DNA of 64,000 nt from an uncultured Candidatus Nitrosopelagicus sp. (GCA_964344885.1 CAYFOW010000001.1:15278-79277), one strand, 5' to 3'. Shown: positions 3,764-10,143, numbered from the stretch's first letter. Notes: a model not told the origin generated them from the sequence alone. Numbers and translations: made by a program.

Positions 3764-3909
3764 ATAGAAAATATTAAGTCAGTATAATTAAAAATGATGA
3801 GTTTTGCGACAAATCCATCTACAGAGTTATGAAAAGCGAACATCACATGATAATCAAAGAGTAATGAATTCAAAAAAGGTTAATCAATGAAAAAGAAAAA
3901 AATACAATA

Positions 3910-4251
3910 TTGATTAAGGCAGAGGTGATTTTTCCTTTACAGTATCTAGATATTGTTTATAGGGCATTGAAAAAATTTGGAGTAGACAACATTTTCATTA
4001 CAAAAGGGGAAAGTAGAGGATTTTTTAATCCTACAAGACGAATGACTCAGAGAGGAACAAAGATCTTTCAGCCAGAATTATCGCCAACGACTAAAATGGA
4101 GATAATCATTAAAGAAAAAGATGTGCCACAAATTACAGCAGAGATTGCACATATTACAAAAATGTCATCACAAGGTGGTGCAAAAGGAGGCAAGATTCTC
4201 ATCCAACGAATTGAGACAATCGAAGATCTGAACAAAATTGAGTTAAGATAA
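3910..4251 (+). CDS. Divergent P-II family protein
   Basis: 113 aa; SRG..., T-loop-like RGTK, KMEIII, GGKILI aligns by eye to the P-II GDGKIF; TTG start. Confidence 0.65.
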   Translation: MIKAEVIFPLQYLDIVYRALKKFGVDNIFITKGESRGFFNPTRRMTQRGTKIFQPELSPTTKMEIIIKEKDVPQITAEIAHITKMSSQGGAKGGKILIQRIETIEDLNKIELR

Positions 4252-4288: not shown

Positions 4289-4510
4289 TTATGGCATCAT
4301 TGGTTTTTGTGAATAGTATGTTTTTCTATACATGTGTCTAACGCCCATGAATAGAACTACAGTACCAACAATTGAACCAGTAATCATTAACAGATTATCA
4401 AGTGGTTCATGTGATGGTGTCACAACTACTGTAGATTCAAATGCGTATGCCTGGCCAAGAGCCATTGATACTGCAACTGTCAACAGTGCTGCAAAAAGTA
4501 AGGATTTCAT
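4289..4510 (-). CDS. Small secreted/membrane protein, copy 1 (signal peptide, TM helix, basic tail)
   Basis: Signal peptide ending AYA, hydrophobic helix, paralog at 7735-7953. Confidence 0.75.
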   Translation of the reverse strand: MKSLLFAALLTVAVSMALGQAYAFESTVVVTPSHEPLDNLLMITGSIVGTVVLFMGVRHMYRKTYYSQKPMMP

Positions 4511-4572
4511 AAATATAGTAACTCAGAACTTGCTAATAAAACTACTATCAAATGATAATCAATTGATTATCA
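4436..4572. repeat. 137-bp exact direct repeat, copy 1 (copy 2 at 7879-8015)
   Basis: Base-by-base comparison; covers the first 25 codons of the small ORF plus 62 bp upstream. Confidence 0.9.
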
Positions 4573-4579
4573 TTTGATA
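4546..4579. promoter_or_regulatory. 34-bp perfect palindrome (three ATCA-WW-TGAT units at 11-bp spacing), putative operator
   Basis: TATCAAATGATAATCAA|TTGATTATCATTTGATA in a divergent promoter region. Confidence 0.7.
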
Positions 4580-4644
4580 ACTATCAATTATCAAACTTGA
4601 TAATATGACATATATGATATATGTGAAAACGAGCAATTATCAAC

Positions 4645-5223
4645 ATGAAAAAAATTGAGGCCATAGTAAAAACTGCGAATTTTTCAGGATTACGAGATGA
4701 ATTACTCATAATGAATCAAATTATTTTAGATCATAGAAACCTTTCAACATCAAATGTAGTTAGTAAAAGAGGAGGTAGTAGAGTTGGAAGTACTGGATTG
4801 CAAAGCATTCCGTTGACAAAGATCGAACTAGTAGTAGATGATAAATCAGCACACGATATAATCAAAGTAATAGCACAAAAATCAGGATTAGGTGCAGAAT
4901 CAAAAAGTAAGATCTACATTTCGGAGATGATTGAGGCAGTAGACATGGATACAATGGAAGGGCACTCAGATAAAGAAGAGGTAAAAACAAAAAAAGTTGC
5001 AAAGATCAAAGTAAAAGAATCAAACAAGGCAAGACTAATTCCATTGCAAAAATACACACTAAACAGAATTTCAGAAGTATATGAAAATAACAAAGAACGA
5101 CTGCAATCAGAATTCAGAATTAAATCATTTTCAGATTTTGTTAACTTTTGCATAATGGGTTATTTGCCTGAAATTGAGCAACAGTTAGCACAAGAGCTAA
5201 TCATGTATGAGAGAAAATTCTAA
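4645..5223 (+). CDS. P-II-like protein with C-terminal RHH-like extension, paralog 1
   Basis: MKKIEAIVK, KIELVVDD, KIYIS; tail ...IKSFSDFVNFCIMGYL. Confidence 0.75.
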   Translation: MKKIEAIVKTANFSGLRDELLIMNQIILDHRNLSTSNVVSKRGGSRVGSTGLQSIPLTKIELVVDDKSAHDIIKVIAQKSGLGAESKSKIYISEMIEAVDMDTMEGHSDKEEVKTKKVAKIKVKESNKARLIPLQKYTLNRISEVYENNKERLQSEFRIKSFSDFVNFCIMGYLPEIEQQLAQELIMYERKF

Positions 5224-5231
5224 ATTAAAAA

Positions 5232-6023
5232 TTAGATTTTTTCATAATTGTGTTCGTCTAAGAATTTATCCCATGCGATAATTCCGCCTTCTAGAACCTG
5301 GAATTGGATCCCGTCTTGTGCTAATTGATATGAGGCAATTGTTGCCCTATTTCCAGAACCGCAAATTACTACAACAGGAGTGTTTTGAGGAATTTCATGT
5401 ATGGAATCAAATTCAAAGATATTTGAAATCGGAATGTTAACACTACCAGATATCATAGTTTTTTCTAGCTCATGTGGTTCACGAACATCAAGTAAAAAGA
5501 GTTCATCATTATTTTTTAGACTAGACCATAATTCAGATGAAGTGATAGTAGGAGAAAGATTTGAGCTGATCAGAGAATCATTCCAAGACATCATGCCATT
5601 TTTAAGGTAATATGAAGAAAAACCATCATTTGTTAGAGATTTGTGGACGTCAGGAGAAATATTTCCATCTGAATCAACTACAATAAGAGTAATTTTTTCA
5701 TCAATCTCGGATAATCTAGAATGAATTGTTTTCATTCTCTTTTCAAGGGTTTTTTCCTCAAATTCATCAAATGCAGAACCAGGGATATGTCCTAGGATAT
5801 AATCATCAATAGAGCGAATATCAATTACAAATGTCAAATCATTTTTTGATAAAACAGATAATTCTTCAGAAGTGATTTCACCAGGAACAACCATTTCAGA
5901 TGGATTGATTACAAATGCCACAGCGCCAATGATAATAACAATTGCAGATAATACATAGACAATTTTTAATTTAACAGAATACATGTTATTGCATAAATTA
6001 AACATCATAAATAATTTACACAT
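5232..6023 (-). CDS. Membrane-anchored tandem rhodanese-domain protein
   Basis: N-terminal TM; IDIR...GHIPG and LDVRE...SGSVNIP; active-site-like VICGSGNRA only in domain 2; true start may lie downstream. Confidence 0.85.
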   Translation of the reverse strand: MCKLFMMFNLCNNMYSVKLKIVYVLSAIVIIIGAVAFVINPSEMVVPGEITSEELSVLSKNDLTFVIDIRSIDDYILGHIPGSAFDEFEEKTLEKRMKTIHSRLSEIDEKITLIVVDSDGNISPDVHKSLTNDGFSSYYLKNGMMSWNDSLISSNLSPTITSSELWSSLKNNDELFLLDVREPHELEKTMISGSVNIPISNIFEFDSIHEIPQNTPVVVICGSGNRATIASYQLAQDGIQFQVLEGGIIAWDKFLDEHNYEKI

Positions 6024-6068
6024 ACAGGCACTTTTGAAGTAGAATAAAATAAGAAAATGAGTTGGGGT

Positions 6069-6398
6069 TTAAAGCCCAGATTGACCGTTTGTGATGTTAT
6101 ATGTCTCTTCAATTGGTGAGACAAGAATTATTCCATCACCAGAGCTTCCCGTTTTTGCCTCTTTTAGAATGCAATCAATTACAGTTTGTTTATCAGAGTC
6201 ATCTACTATAGTAGTGAACTCTATTCTATCTGCCAAATCAATTACATAGGTAAGGCCTCTATGGGATAGGGTTTGTGGTTCACTTTGACCTAGGCCTCGA
6301 ACATTTGAGACCGTAATACCAAAGTTTCCAGCACTCTTTAGAGCAGTCTTAACAGAATCTAGTTTTTCGGATCTAATAACAGCAGTTATCCGTTTCAT
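6069..6398 (-). CDS. glnK: P-II nitrogen regulator (GlnK/GlnB) coupled to amt
   Basis: AVIR, VRGLGQ, TGSSGDGII; 4-bp overlap with the amt stop. Confidence 0.85.
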   Translation of the reverse strand: MKRITAVIRSEKLDSVKTALKSAGNFGITVSNVRGLGQSEPQTLSHRGLTYVIDLADRIEFTTIVDDSDKQTVIDCILKEAKTGSSGDGIILVSPIEETYNITNGQSGL

Positions 6399-7633
6399 TT
6401 CGCTTCTCCCGGATATGCTATTTCACCGTGTAATGCAATATCTTCGCCCATTTCTTCTTCCTCTTCGGTAACCCGTATTGGTTTGAAGAAGTTTATCAAC
6501 TTCAAAATTGCCACCGTACCACCGAAACAGAACAACGCCGTTGCAACTGTTCCAAGTAATTGTACTGGGATCAATTCAGCTGAGCCGTATACAAGACCAG
6601 TGTGAGCACCGCTTGTAATATACGGAGAAGCAAATAGTGCGATTGCGATTGCACCCCAGACACCTGTAAGTCCATGGATTGCGATAACATCACATGCGTC
6701 ATCAACCTTGTACTTTTCTTTAATAAGCAAGATTCCTCCAAAGAATACGAGTCCTGAAACAAGTCCAACTACTAGACCAGCCCATGGCTCGATAAATCCT
6801 GCTGCTGGAGTAATACCAGCCATACCTGCTATTGCACCGTTTGCACCCATTGATGTACTTGGTTTTTTGGTTTTATACCAAGCAGCAAGCATACAAGTCA
6901 AAGCACCACCAGCAGCTGCTAGATTAGTTCCAACAATTGCGGTTACTGCAATTCCATCAGCAGCAAGAGCACTTCCACCATTGAAGCCATTCCAACCTAA
7001 CCAGAGTAAGAACATTGCAATGAATTGATATGGAATGTTGTGACCTTGGGCGACTTTGGCAGTTCCAAAGTCTTTTCGTCTTCCCAAAACCAATGCTGCT
7101 GCAAGAGATGCAAATCCTGCAGATACATGCACAACCCATCCGCCGGCAAAGTCAAGACCGCCTAATTCGGCAAGCCAGCCTCCACCCCAAACAGAGTGTG
7201 CCAAAGGTGTGTAGATAACTATCATCCAAATTGGGATGAATGCCAACCAGGCACCAAATCTCATGCGTTCTGCAATTCCTCCAGAAATGAGCGCAATTGT
7301 AATTGCAGCAAACATTCCCTGATACAAGAAAATTAAGTATCCAGGAATTGTTGGGGCAAGATCAAGGGGTTCCATTCCCACATTCATCAAGAATGCATAA
7401 TCCATGCCGCCAATGATTCCCATGCCACCGACGTCTGAGCCAAATGCCAAGGTAAATCCAACTGCAAACCAGGTGATCAAACCAAACATTGCAGTTGCCA
7501 AAACTTTCATGAAAATTGATGCAGTGTTCTTAGAGCGGATTAATCCAGCCTCTAGTAAACCTACACCACCGATCATCAGAAGTACAAGGCCTGTGGATAC
7601 CATTATCCATGTTGTGTCTCCTGAATCTATCAT
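6395..7633 (-). CDS. amt: Ammonium transporter (Amt)
   Basis: DFAGG..VH and DV..IHG twin His, WNGFNGGS, YQGMFA, C-terminal EEEEMGED..HGE.AY. Confidence 0.97.
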   Translation of the reverse strand: MIDSGDTTWIMVSTGLVLLMIGGVGLLEAGLIRSKNTASIFMKVLATAMFGLITWFAVGFTLAFGSDVGGMGIIGGMDYAFLMNVGMEPLDLAPTIPGYLIFLYQGMFAAITIALISGGIAERMRFGAWLAFIPIWMIVIYTPLAHSVWGGGWLAELGGLDFAGGWVVHVSAGFASLAAALVLGRRKDFGTAKVAQGHNIPYQFIAMFLLWLGWNGFNGGSALAADGIAVTAIVGTNLAAAGGALTCMLAAWYKTKKPSTSMGANGAIAGMAGITPAAGFIEPWAGLVVGLVSGLVFFGGILLIKEKYKVDDACDVIAIHGLTGVWGAIAIALFASPYITSGAHTGLVYGSAELIPVQLLGTVATALFCFGGTVAILKLINFFKPIRVTEEEEEMGEDIALHGEIAYPGEAK

Positions 7634-7734
7634 GATTGTTAGATGAGGTCAGTTCATTGCATTTAACTAATAATAAATTTCGTAATAGTTTGATTGGAAA
7701 ATGATAATCAAAAAAGGGGTTTATGAGCCAAAAT

Positions 7735-7953
7735 TTATGGCATCATTGGTTTTTCAGTAACCCAAGATTTTCCATACATGTGCCTAATGCCCATGAATAG
7801 AACTGCAGTACCAACAATTGAACCAGCAATCATAAGCAGGTGATCTGTGGCACTCTGGGGGGATACAGTTACTGTTGGTTCAAATGCGTATGCCTGGCCA
7901 AGAGCCATTGATACTGCAACTGTCAACAGTGCTGCAAAAAGTAAGGATTTCAT
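7735..7953 (-). CDS. Small secreted/membrane protein, copy 2
   Basis: Paralog of 4289-4510 with an identical signal peptide. Confidence 0.75.
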   Translation of the reverse strand: MKSLLFAALLTVAVSMALGQAYAFEPTVTVSPQSATDHLLMIAGSIVGTAVLFMGIRHMYGKSWVTEKPMMP

Positions 7954-8015
7954 AAATATAGTAACTCAGAACTTGCTAATAAAACTACTATCAAATGATA
8001 ATCAATTGATTATCA
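7879..8015. repeat. 137-bp exact direct repeat, copy 2, including the 20-bp palindrome TGATAATCAATTGATTATCA (7996-8015)
   Basis: Identical to 4436-4572. Confidence 0.9.
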
Positions 8016-8069
8016 AAATTATACCAAATAATGTCTATTTTAAATGCGATTAGAATTACAGAATTCACA

Positions 8070-8699
8070 TTGAAGAAAATTGAAGCCATTGTCAAGACAG
8101 TGAATTTCTCAGCAATTCGTGATGAGCTTTTGATGATGGGTCATTTAGTTATAGATCATAGAAATCTTACAACATCAAATGTTGTAGGTAAGAGAGGAGG
8201 TAGTAGAGTTGGAAGTTCAGGACTTCAAAGTATACCGTTAACAAAAATGGAATTAGTAGTAGACGATAAATCAGCACATGAAGTTATCAGGGTGATCTCT
8301 CAGAAATCAGGGTTAGGTGCAGAATCAAGAAATAAAATCTACATTTCAGAGATGACTGAGGCAGTAGACATGGATACAATGGAGGGACATGTGGAATTGG
8401 AGCCAACTGAAAAACCAGAATTAGAACAATTAGAGATACAGCCTCAAAGTATAGAAATTAAATCAAGTGTAAAAAAGCCGAAAATCAGATCAGATGGGAA
8501 AAAGAGTCGTCTTGTCCCCTTACAAAAATATACACTTAATCGAGTAACAGAGATTTATGATAAAAATACAGATAGGTTGAGATCCGAATATCGTATTAAA
8601 TCATTTTCAGATTTTGTAAATTTCTGTATTTTAGGATATTTGCCAACAATTGAGGAGCAATTAGCACAGAAGACAATAATGTATGAGAGGAGATTTTAG
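8070..8699 (+). CDS. P-II-like protein with C-terminal RHH-like extension, paralog 2
   Basis: ORF track 8031-8699; TTG at 8070 gives MKKIEAIVK as in paralog 1. Confidence 0.75.
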   Translation: MKKIEAIVKTVNFSAIRDELLMMGHLVIDHRNLTTSNVVGKRGGSRVGSSGLQSIPLTKMELVVDDKSAHEVIRVISQKSGLGAESRNKIYISEMTEAVDMDTMEGHVELEPTEKPELEQLEIQPQSIEIKSSVKKPKIRSDGKKSRLVPLQKYTLNRVTEIYDKNTDRLRSEYRIKSFSDFVNFCILGYLPTIEEQLAQKTIMYERRF

Positions 8700-9221: not shown

Positions 9222-9815
9222 ATGGCGGATAAATATCATGTTTTTAAAAAAAACCTAATGTTAATTACGGATTCAGTGAATTATAGTGAAATTTGCAATG
9301 ATGTGATGCAAAAAGATCAAGCTGTCAGATATGTAGGAGTGTTAGGAAGGAGTGGAGAAATGTTAACTGAGAGATACAGACATGATGTTCAGAGCATACT
9401 TAATGAAGAAGAAACCAGAATGGCACGACATTATGCATCAGCAAAATGGGAAATGCGTAAAACGCTTGAACATAAAATAGGCAAAGAGAAAATGGCCATT
9501 TCAATTTATAACAACATCACACAGATTTCAGTTCCGCTAAACAATCAAGAATTATTGCTGATTAGTTTAGATACAGATTATGATCAGAGTAAGATTATAG
9601 ATAAATTTATCAACATTGCATCAACGTTTCAGAAAATTAATGAGTGGTTAAATCAAGAAATTCCAATTGAAGAGTTGCGCAAGAAAGATTCAGAAGAACT
9701 AATCAAACAAAAAGAATTTTTGGAACAAAAAGCATCAAGCTTTGATCCAGTGGTAAAGAGCATTGTTAAAAAAAATATCAGGCATATCAATTCAGTTCTA
9801 AAAGAAATTTGTTGA
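9222..9815 (+). CDS. DUF6659-like (roadblock/profilin-like) protein with charged C-terminal extension
   Basis: VRYVGVL...G....R, LEHKIGKEK..IS.Y..I.QISVPL pattern. Confidence 0.6.
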   Translation: MADKYHVFKKNLMLITDSVNYSEICNDVMQKDQAVRYVGVLGRSGEMLTERYRHDVQSILNEEETRMARHYASAKWEMRKTLEHKIGKEKMAISIYNNITQISVPLNNQELLLISLDTDYDQSKIIDKFINIASTFQKINEWLNQEIPIEELRKKDSEELIKQKEFLEQKASSFDPVVKSIVKKNIRHINSVLKEIC

Positions 9816-9885
9816 TTAGAAACTGATTATCAAATGATGTGTGAACAGCATTGTGGATAAATAGGTTAAGCTAATAATTATTCTA

Positions 9886-10143
9886 ATGATGGTACAAAAA
9901 GTAACTGGAAGAGGTACAGGTGTCAGAGAAGCAAACATCTCTGAACAAAATTGGGCAGGAGATAATTATGTCCAAATTCAAAACAAAAGACTTCAGAGTA
10001 CCAAAAAAGATCTAACTATCCATATCGGAAGAGGTAGTAAAACAATTCGTGCATCAGAATTACCCAAACGTCTTAACAGACCTACTGGAAGAGGAATAAT
10101 AGTTAGTTCAGGAAGAGGTACAAGAAGTTATTTGTTACAATAA
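9886..10143 (+). CDS. Small basic hypothetical protein with four GRG motifs
   Basis: 85-aa ORF followed by a hairpin and T-tract. Confidence 0.65.
   Translation: MMVQKVTGRGTGVREANISEQNWAGDNYVQIQNKRLQSTKKDLTIHIGRGSKTIRASELPKRLNRPTGRGIIVSSGRGTRSYLLQ

What the first reader, a model, noticed from the sequence alone, without database searches (positions are those of the whole stretch)
4645..8699. Two P-II proteins apparently fused to a ribbon-helix-helix DNA-binding tail: candidate one-component nitrogen regulators
Seen: both paralogs (4645-5223, 8070-8699) have an N-terminal P-II fold with a non-canonical T-loop and B-loop (SGLGAES[K/R][S/N]KIY instead of TGxxGDGKIF). A variable charged linker follows, then a strongly conserved ~55-aa tail: RL[I/V]PLQKYTLNR..E.Y..N..RL.SE.RIKSFSDFVNFCI.GYL. 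Established: RHH domains are a short beta strand, helix A, then helix B beginning S-x-S-[ED]-x-[IV] and ending ...YL; P-II proteins normally act on separate transcription factors. Inference: a P-II-RHH fusion binding the palindromes directly upstream of its own genes. Similar long P-II proteins may already be annotated in AOA simply as P-II.
Basis: partly seen in the sequence, partly recalled or inferred. Interest (0 to 1): 0.72.

Follow-up and report, generated by a model that had tools for sequence, protein, structure and literature searches.

The report
P-II sensor with DNA-binding-like tail
Beside the ammonium-transporter gene of a marine ammonia-oxidising archaeon, two genes encode nitrogen-sensor (P-II) proteins with an extra, highly conserved tail that probably binds a 9-letter DNA palindrome at their own and the transporter's promoters; they may be the unknown switch for ammonium uptake, but DNA binding is not shown.

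Summary
Genes 4645-5223 and 8070-8699 encode sister paralogs (65% identical). Each has a divergent P-II domain, a disordered acidic linker and a confidently folded, basic tail of about 60 aa, which is the best-conserved part of the protein.

The RHH reading is plausible but unproven. AlphaFold (monomer) gives coil plus helices. No Pfam, PDB, Foldseek or profile-profile match is significant. RHH proteins recur only among weak hits.

New here:
- The tail is homologous (hhalign 96%) to stand-alone 57-69 aa proteins and to the N-terminal domain of a roughly 127-aa protein family. That family occurs in most genomes searched from three ammonia-oxidiser families and is multi-copy in one of them.
- The real cis-element is a 9-bp palindrome, TGATWATCA, often in tandem every 11 bp. 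It sits at long-P-II and amt promoters in two families. In ten syntenic loci I counted 15 boxes in 3.2 kb of promoter against 4 in 167 kb.
- The long P-II co-occurs with one Amt paralog (38/39 against 0/28 genomes within one genus).

Best reading (about 0.45): a P-II-type one-component regulator of the amt module.

This scan reached a similar reading before on another genome (e1-2603612). It is a new variant of a known kind and needs EMSA or a multimer model.

The parts
4645..5223 (+). Long P-II paralog A (192 aa). P-II-like domain aa 1-105 (nt 4645-4959), charged linker aa 106-127 (4960-5025), conserved tail aa 128-192 (5026-5220), then the stop codon.
8070..8699 (+). Long P-II paralog B (209 aa, TTG start). 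P-II-like domain aa 1-105 (nt 8070-8384), acidic disordered linker aa 106-143 (8385-8498), conserved tail aa 144-209 (8499-8696), then the stop codon.
4546..4579 (.). Perfect 34-nt palindrome upstream of A. It holds two full TGATWATCA boxes (4553-4561, 4564-4572) and two flanking half boxes, all spaced 11 bp apart.
4587..4643 (.). Further box-like octamers between the palindrome and the start of A: ATTATCAA at 4587-4594, TTGATAAT at 4597-4604, ATTATCAA at 4636-4643. They flank an AT-rich TATA-like stretch at about 4608-4624.
7996..8015 (.). 20-nt palindrome made of two TGATWATCA boxes (7996-8004, 8007-8015) upstream of B. It lies in the promoter shared with the divergent small membrane-protein gene.
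7702..7710 (.). Single TGATAATCA box upstream of the amt-glnK operon (amt start at 7633 on the minus strand).
3848..3856 (.). TGATAATCA box about 55 nt upstream of the 113-aa P-II-like gene.
9824..9832 (.). TGATTATCA box between the DUF6659 gene and ORF 9886-10143.
6395..7633 (-). Ammonium transporter Amt (412 aa). This is the short-form paralog whose presence tracks that of the long P-II across genomes.
6069..6398 (-). Canonical short GlnK-type P-II (109 aa, PF00543 72 bits). It overlaps the amt stop codon by 4 nt.
3910..4251 (+). 113-aa divergent P-II-like protein (PF00543 23.8 bits, just under the cut-off). Its ortholog lies next to the long P-II in family f2.
4289..4510 (-). 73-aa protein with a signal peptide and a C-terminal membrane anchor, transcribed divergently from A.
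7735..7953 (-). 72-aa paralog of the small membrane protein, transcribed divergently from B.

Best explanation
Each gene encodes a lineage-specific 'long P-II' with three parts. The first is a trimer-type P-II-like sensor domain whose canonical ATP and 2-oxoglutarate contacts are altered. The second is a flexible acidic linker. The third is a small basic C-terminal domain, most likely a ribbon-helix-helix-type dimeric DNA binder.

I propose that the tail binds the 9-bp palindrome TGATWATCA. The boxes are often arrayed every 11 bp (one helical turn) at the protein's own promoter, at the promoter of the linked ammonium-transporter operon, and at a few neighbouring genes. Effector binding to the P-II domain would then be converted directly into transcription control of the amt module.

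Shown: the domain architecture; the P-II fold; the tail as an independent conserved domain with stand-alone and N-terminal homologs; box conservation and enrichment at these promoters; co-occurrence of the long P-II with one Amt paralog.

Inferred: the RHH fold, dimerisation, DNA binding, the identity of the effector, and whether the protein represses or activates. Boxes that abut or overlap the TATA and start regions suggest autorepression.
For: Architecture and fold:
- The P-II domain is confirmed.
- The tail has pLDDT 86-96 and the linker below 50.
- Median net charge is +4 for the tail and -3 for the linker in 35 homologs.
- The tail is the best-conserved region.

Tail as a portable domain:
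- A tail profile searched against 1.84 billion proteins finds only 17 hits, among them 57-69 aa stand-alone proteins.
- One of these stand-alone proteins matches the N-terminus of a roughly 127-aa family. That family is present in 172/180 genomes of family f1 and 9/9 of f2, and has up to 10 copies per genome in f3.
- hhalign of that N-domain against the tail gives prob 95.9%, E 6.5e-9.
- In those homologs the domain starts at residue 1, with an alternating polar/hydrophobic segment (GFKTVTLRE, GFKSITISE), then two helices joined by a loop of variable length.

Weak RHH leads:
- Structural hits include TraM N-domain (Z 3.9, rmsd 2.6, 47 aa), ParB of pCXC100, and the Rv0298 and TacA antitoxins. 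Foldseek's top weak hits are TCP-DNA complexes.
- Protein-Atlas neighbours of the stand-alone form are RHH_1, RHH_3, RHH_6, TraM and DUF3950 clusters.
- A sister cluster of the 127-aa family has 11% PF01402 members.
- JGI labels two members 'predicted CopG family antitoxin'.

DNA:
- Boxes sit at long-P-II and amt promoters in several genera of two families.
- Ten syntenic loci hold 15 boxes in 3.2 kb of promoter against 4 in 166.8 kb elsewhere.
- In genus g2, amt is unlinked from the long P-II, yet 7/7 genomes carrying the tail have tandem box-like sites at amt (6 with at least one exact box, 1 with a variant).
- In the window, 7 of 10 boxes lie within 3.8-9.9 kb.
- A 9-bp palindrome read in a single major groove fits a beta-ribbon dimer better than a helix-turn-helix dimer (inference from established RHH-operator structures such as MetJ, Arc and CopG).

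Phyletic pattern and synteny:
- 71/73 tail-positive genomes have the short-form Amt, against 21/105 tail-negative ones.
- Within genus g3 the figures are 38/39 against 0/28.
- The order long P-II, short P-II, Amt is kept in 10/12 loci.
Against: - No significant sequence or structure match to any RHH family.
- hhalign against 31 archaeal RHH_1 domains gives P 0.03-0.2, no better than a reversed control at 0.07-0.11.
- The AlphaFold monomer shows no strand and an extra short helix. No multimer model could be run.
- The putative strand of the tail (R-L-V-P-L-Q) has Pro and Leu where RHH proteins usually have polar DNA-reading residues.
- Genome G251 keeps the tandem box at amt with no long P-II detected. 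It is 96% complete.
- The 9-mer is not over-represented genome-wide: 56 copies, within the range of same-composition 9-mers.
- Genomes compared are related, and the promoter regions were inspected before they were counted.
- A trimeric P-II joined to a dimeric RHH has a symmetry mismatch that is unexplained.
Confidence: 0.45

Rival explanations
1. The tail is a protein-protein module for dimerisation or docking. It could cross-link P-II trimers, or tether the sensor to the Amt, to the small membrane protein or to another target. On this reading the TGATWATCA boxes belong to a different, unidentified transcription factor of a nitrogen regulon, and the long P-II is merely one regulated member.
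For: - The top structural rows are as often dimerisation or docking helices as RHH proteins: ZapA, APS Phe-zipper, PKA D/D, DEBS docking domains and S100, all at Z 3-4.
- No RHH family is detected by sequence.
- P-II proteins classically act by binding partner proteins (established knowledge).
- Co-occurrence with one Amt paralog fits a protein partner equally well.
- G251 keeps the box without a long P-II.
- Boxes also lie near a gene beside glnA and near another glnK elsewhere in the genome.
Against: - The homologous domain is the N-terminal module of a multi-paralog family of small proteins that carry a separate Cys/His-bearing C-terminal domain. It also occurs alone as a 57-aa protein. This is typical of small DNA binders.
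- The tail is basic, and the linker in front of it is acidic.
- A canonical GlnK already sits in the operon with Amt.
- Boxes are at the long-P-II promoter itself in most of the genera examined.
Confidence: 0.3
2. The tail does bind the boxes, but through a small helical DNA-binding fold that is not RHH. This would be a new Nitrososphaeria-specific helical DNA binder.
For: - AlphaFold predicts three helices and no strand with high confidence.
- No RHH profile match exists.
- The family has no Pfam model at all.
Against: - The N-terminal alternating segment, conserved in all three subfamilies, looks like an amphipathic strand.
- Weak hits from three independent methods all point to the RHH clan rather than to another DNA-binding fold.
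- Monomer predictions cannot form the inter-chain ribbon.
Confidence: 0.12
3. The tail folds back on its own P-II domain, or on the T-loop, as an intramolecular regulatory element and has no external target.
For: The full-length model gives no confident relative placement of the domains (pTM 0.42).
Against: - The domain exists without any P-II in stand-alone proteins and in the 127-aa family.
- The linker varies in length (19-46 aa in 35 homologs; longer still in family f2) and is disordered.
Confidence: 0.05

Closest known systems
NikR (RHH DNA-binding domain plus ACT-like ferredoxin-fold metal-sensor domain)
   Same: A small RHH-type DNA binder is fused in one chain to a beta-alpha-beta-beta-alpha-beta ligand-sensing oligomerisation domain. 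It is a one-component regulator of an uptake system and acts at a palindromic operator in the promoter it controls.
   Different: The domain order is reversed here, with the sensor N-terminal and the putative RHH C-terminal behind a 20-90 aa disordered linker. The sensor is a P-II (trimer type), not an ACT tetramer. RHH membership of the tail is unproven, and the effector is unknown.
Canonical P-II signalling through separate partners: GlnK-AmtB, PII-PipX-NtcA in cyanobacteria, GlnK/TnrA in Bacillus, NrpR with 2-oxoglutarate in methanogens
   Same: The fold is P-II, the gene sits in the neighbourhood of amt and glnK, and the likely role is nitrogen-status signalling. K58- and K90-equivalent lysines are kept (K59 and K89 are invariant).
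   Different: Known P-II proteins have about 112 aa and no DNA-binding domain; they modulate transcription only through other proteins. Here an output domain is fused. The B-loop GDGK reads SRNK or SKSK in this window (orthologs keep GGKIF with a 2-aa insertion). The ATP-contacting RxR reads DxD.
RHH repressors with short tandem or palindromic operators (MetJ met-boxes, Arc, CopG, omega, ParG and TraM)
   Same: The palindromic unit is compact (9 bp) and repeated in phase. The domain is small and basic, with an N-terminal alternating segment and two helices. The placement suggests autoregulation.
   Different: There is no detectable sequence similarity. Helix A and its loop are about 8 aa longer than in RHH_1. 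The strand carries an invariant Pro. The domain lies at the C-terminus of a larger protein.
P-II-like proteins with altered ligand sites (SbtB, PstA/DarA, CutA, PII-NG)
   Same: The P-II fold is kept while the nucleotide and 2-oxoglutarate contacts are non-canonical, which suggests a different effector.
   Different: Those proteins are single-domain and act on transporters or enzymes. To my knowledge, and in the literature searched, none carries a conserved extra folded domain like this tail.

Membership tests
P-II (GlnB/GlnK, PF00543) | Match to the family HMM above the curated cut-off | tested here: met
   A scores 25.6 bits and B 32.6 bits against a cut-off of 25. The match covers residues 1-100 only. 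The margin is small.
P-II (GlnB/GlnK, PF00543) | Double beta-alpha-beta ferredoxin-like fold with a long T-loop | tested here: met
   The AF2 model has E2-9, H10-22, E27-33, a disordered loop, E57-64, H66-79 and E90-94. Foldseek against solved GlnK, GlnZ and GlnB gives prob 1.00 and TM to target 0.64-0.80.
P-II (GlnB/GlnK, PF00543) | B-loop nucleotide motif TGxxGDGKIF and C-terminal RxR phosphate contacts | tested here: not met
   The alignment to 3ncp puts SRNKIY opposite GDGKIF and DMD opposite RIR. D100 is invariant in the family. Orthologs keep GGKIF but with a B-loop 2 aa longer.
P-II (GlnB/GlnK, PF00543) | Conserved lysines equivalent to K58 and K90 | tested here: met
   K59 and K89 are invariant in 53 homologs.
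P-II (GlnB/GlnK, PF00543) | Homotrimer that binds ATP/ADP and 2-oxoglutarate | not testable with these tools
   Needs SEC-MALS, ITC or a multimer model.
Ribbon-helix-helix (Met_repress clan; RHH_1 PF01402 and relatives) | Significant match to an RHH family profile | tested here: not met
   There is no RHH family in Pfam scans of the tails, the stand-alone homologs or 23 members of the 127-aa family. PF01402 searched over the whole genome finds another gene, not the tails. hhalign against 31 RHH_1 domains gives P 0.03-0.2, like the reversed control.
Ribbon-helix-helix (Met_repress clan; RHH_1 PF01402 and relatives) | Topology: short N-terminal strand, helix A, turn, helix B | tested here: inconclusive
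   The monomer models give coil (res 1-9), helix 10-24 plus 26-32, and helix 38-58. An alternating polar/hydrophobic segment precedes helix A in all subfamilies. The strand cannot form in a monomer.
Ribbon-helix-helix (Met_repress clan; RHH_1 PF01402 and relatives) | Structural similarity to solved RHH proteins | tested here: inconclusive
   TraM scores Z 3.9 (rmsd 2.6, 47 aa), ParB of pCXC100 Z 4.1, Rv0298 Z 3.3 and TacA1 Z 3.1. These sit among unrelated helical rows of equal Z. Foldseek E is at least 4.
Ribbon-helix-helix (Met_repress clan; RHH_1 PF01402 and relatives) | Intertwined dimer whose antiparallel ribbon reads the major groove; specific DNA binding | not testable with these tools
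EMSA or a structure is needed.
NikR-like one-component regulator (RHH plus ferredoxin-fold sensor) | RHH and a ligand-binding beta-alpha-beta-beta-alpha-beta domain in one chain, acting at an operator in the regulated promoter | tested here: inconclusive
   A sensor fold is present, and an operator-like box is conserved at the promoters. However, the RHH is unproven, the domain order is reversed, and there is no homology to NikR.

The most novel reading that the evidence does not exclude
Long P-II proteins are the first P-II family members that bind DNA themselves. Trimers would be bridged by tail dimers into hexamers carrying three RHH-like heads. These heads would sit on phased TGATWATCA boxes and switch the accessory amt module of marine and acid-soil ammonia-oxidising archaea in response to an as-yet-unknown effector. 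The tail, together with the roughly 127-aa proteins, would define a new Nitrososphaeria-specific family of DNA-binding domains that supplies much of the unrecognised transcription-factor repertoire of these archaea.
Probability: 0.35. Interest if true: 0.82.

Novelty: new variant of a known kind. Interest (0 to 1): 0.68.

Why it matters
[quoted passage not shown] In the open literature I searched, no nitrogen-responsive transcription factor or operator is described for them; a 2023 review says only that they contain P-II homologues.

A P-II protein that carries its own DNA-binding output would be a new signalling logic for one of the most widespread signal-protein families. It would also give an immediately testable system: a defined protein, a defined 9-bp operator and a defined small regulon (amt, the P-II genes and small membrane proteins).

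Separately, the tail links to an unannotated domain family that is near-universal in these archaea and multi-copy in soil lineages. That family may be an overlooked class of regulators.

Tried and rejected
Searches that found nothing significant for the tail:
- Pfam and NCBIfam scans of the tail, of the stand-alone homologs and of 23 members of the 127-aa family. There is no RHH or any other meaningful family; the hits are only chance-level (DUF1599, DUF7683, PI3K_P85_iSH2, one VAPB_antitox at E 0.16).
- PDB profile searches with the tail alignment and with the merged superfamily alignment. No RHH appears and the best hits are unrelated.
- Foldseek of the tail model against PDB and BFVD. Nothing scores below E about 4.
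- VIA-align against 48,161 chains gives a best Z of 4.1. The second look covered only Foldseek's 7 chains.
- hhalign against my own alignment of 31 archaeal PF01402 domains, with reversed-sequence controls, is not significant. That reference alignment has low diversity, so the test is weak.

DNA motifs:
- The heptamer TGATAAT and the 9-mer are not unusual genome-wide. ATCA-NN-TGAT is not enriched in intergenic DNA overall (23 of 194 hits). The signal is local clustering, not global excess.
- A four-box cluster on contig C10 (2932-2996) lies between two hypothetical genes with no evident nitrogen link.

Expression:
- No RNA holder is listed for this stretch.

Literature:
- Six searches found no paper describing a P-II with a DNA-binding tail in these archaea.

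- The Atlas would not read a new sequence, so stored homologs were used.
I stopped typing it, fetched the stretch as locus L101 and used a reference instead.

Unpublished genomes:
- G132, G230, G282 and G373 appear in the tool tallies.
- The short-form Amt against tail counts leave out G132, G230 and G282.
- The tallies quoted for the 127-aa family (172/180 in family f1, 37/41 in family f3) include them.
- No sequence from any of the four was used.

Full report
**What is there**

The window comes from a small (1.34 Mb, 98% complete) genome of the ammonia-oxidising archaeal class. Close homologs are labelled Nitrosopumilus or Nitrosarchaeum.

Between 3.9 and 10.4 kb lie these genes:
- a 113-aa P-II-like gene (3910-4251, +);
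- a 73-aa gene for a signal-peptide, membrane-anchored protein (4289-4510, -);
- long P-II A (4645-5223, +);
- a double rhodanese (5232-6023, -);
- a canonical glnK (6069-6398, -), overlapping amt (6395-7633, -);
- a 72-aa paralog of the small membrane protein (7735-7953, -);
- long P-II B (8070-8699, +);
- a DUF6659 gene (9222-9815, +).

A and B are 65% identical and are each other's closest relatives on a tree of 53 homologs. B most likely starts at TTG 8070. Orthologs all begin MKKIEA and several use GTG or TTG. A TATA-like run lies about 25-33 nt upstream, as expected for a leaderless archaeal mRNA (inference).

**The P-II part**

Residues 1-100 pass the Pfam P-II threshold only narrowly. 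The fold is nonetheless clear. AlphaFold gives the double beta-alpha-beta core at pLDDT about 90. Foldseek returns GlnK, GlnZ and GlnB structures at probability 1.00, aligned over about 106-110 columns only.

The lysines equivalent to K58 and K90 are invariant. The ligand site is not canonical. In the alignment to A. fulgidus GlnB-2, GDGKIF faces SRNKIY and the phosphate-binding RIR faces DMD. The acidic pair is conserved family-wide (VDM[DE]T). Orthologs keep GGKIF, but in a B-loop 2 aa longer. I therefore call it a P-II-like sensor with an unknown effector.

**The tail**

The linker is variable in length (19-46 aa in the 35 homologs measured; family f2 members are longer), net acidic and predicted disordered. 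Behind it, about 55-60 residues fold confidently (pLDDT 86-96). The model shows an unstructured basic N-terminal stretch, a long helix with a kink, and a second long helix. This is the most conserved part of the protein.

Sequence and structure searches give no significant hit:
- No Pfam, NCBIfam or PDB sequence match.
- Foldseek against PDB and BFVD is empty. The top weak hits are TCP-domain-DNA complexes and one CopG protein.
- An exhaustive structural scan peaks at Z 4.1. Several RHH proteins appear (TraM, ParB of pCXC100, Rv0298, TacA1), but they are mixed with dimerisation helices of equal score.
- hhalign against 31 archaeal RHH_1 domains yields an alignment with the expected topology: strand on strand, an 8-aa insertion after helix A, and KSFSDF on the RS-E-I-R helix-B start. 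The P values (0.03-0.2) are no better than a reversed control.

The RHH fold is therefore neither confirmed nor refuted. A monomer model cannot form the inter-chain ribbon, and I had no multimer job.

**New: the tail is a portable domain**

A tail profile searched against 1.84 billion representatives found only 17 proteins. Three of them are stand-alone proteins of 57-69 aa.

Using one of these (P0138) as a bridge uncovered a protein of about 127 aa (own genome contig C7:3012-3395, locus L101). Its first 55 residues are the same domain. The family occurs in 172/180 genomes of the window's family, 9/9 of the sister family f2, and 37/41 of family f3, where there are up to 10 paralogs per genome. 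hhalign of this N-domain against the tail gives 95.9% probability, E 6.5e-9.

In these proteins the domain begins at residue 1 or 2. It opens with an alternating segment (GFKTVTLRE, GFKSITISE, KEVVTVEIF), followed by helix A, a loop whose length varies by up to 9 residues, and helix B (F-x-x-[FY]-[VIL]-[ND]). A separate C-terminal domain follows, with conserved Cys and His. This arrangement is how small RHH-type regulators are usually built.

Independent but weak pointers go the same way:
- JGI names two members 'predicted CopG family antitoxin'.
- An Atlas sister cluster has PF01402 on 11% of its members.
- The language-model neighbours of the stand-alone form are RHH_1, RHH_3, RHH_6, TraM and DUF3950 clusters at scores of 0.87-0.90, which count as leads only.

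Pfam itself sees no RHH in 23 diverse members.

**The DNA element**

However, the two copies in this window lie in a 137-bp block that is 100% identical (4436-4572 = 7879-8015), so they are not independent.

Comparison with other genomes is what gives them weight. The repeating unit is the 9-bp palindrome TGATWATCA. The ATCA-NN-TGAT motif noted earlier is the junction of two adjacent boxes. Across genomes:
- Upstream of long-P-II orthologs, a TGATAAT box sits about 8-10 nt upstream of the TATA element in most Nitrosopumilus-like genera.
- One genus has ATCA-N4-TGATAAT with a freely varying spacer.
- Family f2 has ATTATCA-TA-TGATAAT, or three or four TTATCA repeats straddling the TATA box.
- The divergent amt/short-P-II promoters of the same genomes carry one or two boxes, often as an exact 11-bp tandem (TGATAATCAAG-TGATAATCAAA) or an inverted pair.
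- In ten 17-kb syntenic loci there are 15 boxes in 3.2 kb of these promoters and 4 in the other 166.8 kb. The caveats are related genomes, regions inspected before counting, and AT-rich intergenic DNA.
- In genus g2, amt is hundreds of kb away from the long P-II. Even so, 7/7 tail-bearing genomes have the tandem array at amt.

In this window, 7 of 10 boxes lie between 3848 and 9832. They sit at the promoters of the 113-aa P-II-like gene, of A, of B with its divergent small gene, of amt, and of ORF 9886.

Genome-wide the 9-mer is not over-represented; the signal is its clustering. Two further intergenic boxes elsewhere lie beside a small gene next to glnA and near another glnK.

**Phyletic pattern**

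In the 301 genomes searched, the tail was found only in two families (72/180 and 9/9). Apart from a few truncated or interrupted matches, it always lies in an open frame of 186-243 aa, that is, fused to P-II. Most genomes have one copy; this one has two.

Genomes without the tail usually also lack the short-form Amt paralog encoded here, and keep only a longer Amt that carries a signal peptide. With the unpublished genomes G132, G230 and G282 left out:
- 71/73 tail-positive genomes have a short-form Amt N-terminus match at E<=1e-17.
- 21/105 tail-negative genomes have one, and most of those 21 are in a single genus (g14).
- Within genus g3 the split is 38/39 against 0/28.

The g14 amt promoters mostly lack boxes. 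One g2 genome (G251, 96% complete) keeps the box array with no long P-II detected. This is a real counter-example unless the gene lies in an assembly gap.

Synteny in the order long P-II, short P-II, Amt (sometimes followed by DUF6659) holds in 10/12 loci from two families.

**Interpretation**

The data fit a module in which a P-II-like sensor with a fused small DNA-binding domain controls its own gene and the accessory ammonium transporter.

The box geometry favours a beta-ribbon reader over a helix-turn-helix dimer. It is a 9-bp palindrome, so both half-sites lie within one major groove, and it is repeated once per helical turn. This is inference from known RHH operators. Boxes next to or overlapping the TATA and start regions suggest repression.

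A trimer joined to dimers implies higher-order assemblies, for example hexamers with three heads on three phased boxes. The acidic linker could act as an intramolecular competitor for the basic head. Both ideas are speculation.

I put this reading at about 0.45. A protein-docking tail with another factor at the boxes gets about 0.30. A DNA-binding but non-RHH fold gets about 0.12.

**Known or new**

Six literature searches found nothing on a P-II with such a tail. A 2023 review of these archaea mentions only generic P-II homologues. Databases call these proteins 'P-II family nitrogen regulator' or 'transcriptional regulator'.

This scan had already flagged the same architecture in another genome, with the same partly supported verdict and the NikR analogy (e1-2603612). 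That is not independent evidence.

- the homology of the tail to a large unannotated domain family;
- the 9-bp box definition and its enrichment;
- the within-genus co-occurrence with one Amt paralog;
- the lineage-specific duplication seen here.

Noticed in passing
own genome contig C7:3012-3395 (-), locus L101:3015-3395; outside the window: A protein family of about 127 aa with no Pfam or NCBIfam model. Its N-terminal 55 aa are homologous to the long-P-II tail. Its C-terminal domain has a conserved Cys/His motif (LYCQLCEAKDCHC, with C95 invariant). It is present in 172/180 and 9/9 genomes of two families and has up to 10 paralogs per genome in a third. It is possibly an overlooked regulator family.
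   Followed up: partly
window 4436-4572 and 7879-8015: A 137-bp block is 100% identical between the two promoter regions. It covers the signal-peptide end of the small membrane-protein genes and both boxes. The flanking coding DNA, by contrast, has diverged to 65% protein identity. This looks like recent gene conversion or very strong constraint.
   Followed up: partly
window 4289-4510 (-) and 7735-7953 (-); L004-L012 upstream of the long P-II: A protein of 72-73 aa with a signal peptide and a C-terminal anchor is paired with the long P-II both here (divergent) and in family f2 (same strand, directly upstream, with a similar C-terminus ...SFYSKYRLVP). Its function is unknown. It could be a partner or a co-regulated membrane component.
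   Followed up: no
window 6395-7633 compared with L072, L073 and L065-L076: The Amt of this genome is 64.5% identical to that of the sister family f2 but only 46-48% identical to the linked Amt of its own family, including a genome of the same genus. The tails of A and B are likewise closer to f2 tails (about 74%) than to own-family tails (about 60%). The module may have been exchanged between families.
   Followed up: no
L078-L081 and L084-L088 (upstream of the long-form Amt in tail-less genomes): A different conserved element sits about 70-100 nt upstream of the signal-peptide-bearing Amt paralog in many genomes. It reads roughly GTTAnTATCAnAATATACTnnAATATAATAATTTAC and is distinct from the TGATWATCA box.
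   Followed up: no
own genome C17:25992 and C23:21512; outside the window: Two further intergenic TGATAATCA boxes. One is 47 nt upstream of a 78-aa gene that lies next to glutamine synthetase. The other is near another glnK-type P-II gene at a contig end. They hint at a wider nitrogen regulon.
   Followed up: partly
own genome C10:2932-2996 (locus L033): A cluster of four TTGATAAT/ATTATCAA octamers lies in the divergent promoter of two hypothetical genes (99 aa and 149 aa).
   Followed up: partly
window 9222-9815 (+): A DUF6659 protein (25 bits, just under the cut-off). Its homologs lie directly beside the linked amt in several other genomes (L065, L071, L075, L076). An ATCAAATGAT motif (the junction motif of two adjacent boxes) sits 12 nt upstream of its start here.
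   Followed up: no
window 5232-6023 (-): A membrane-anchored double-rhodanese protein is inserted between long P-II A and glnK. It is not found in the syntenic loci of the other genomes examined.
   Followed up: no
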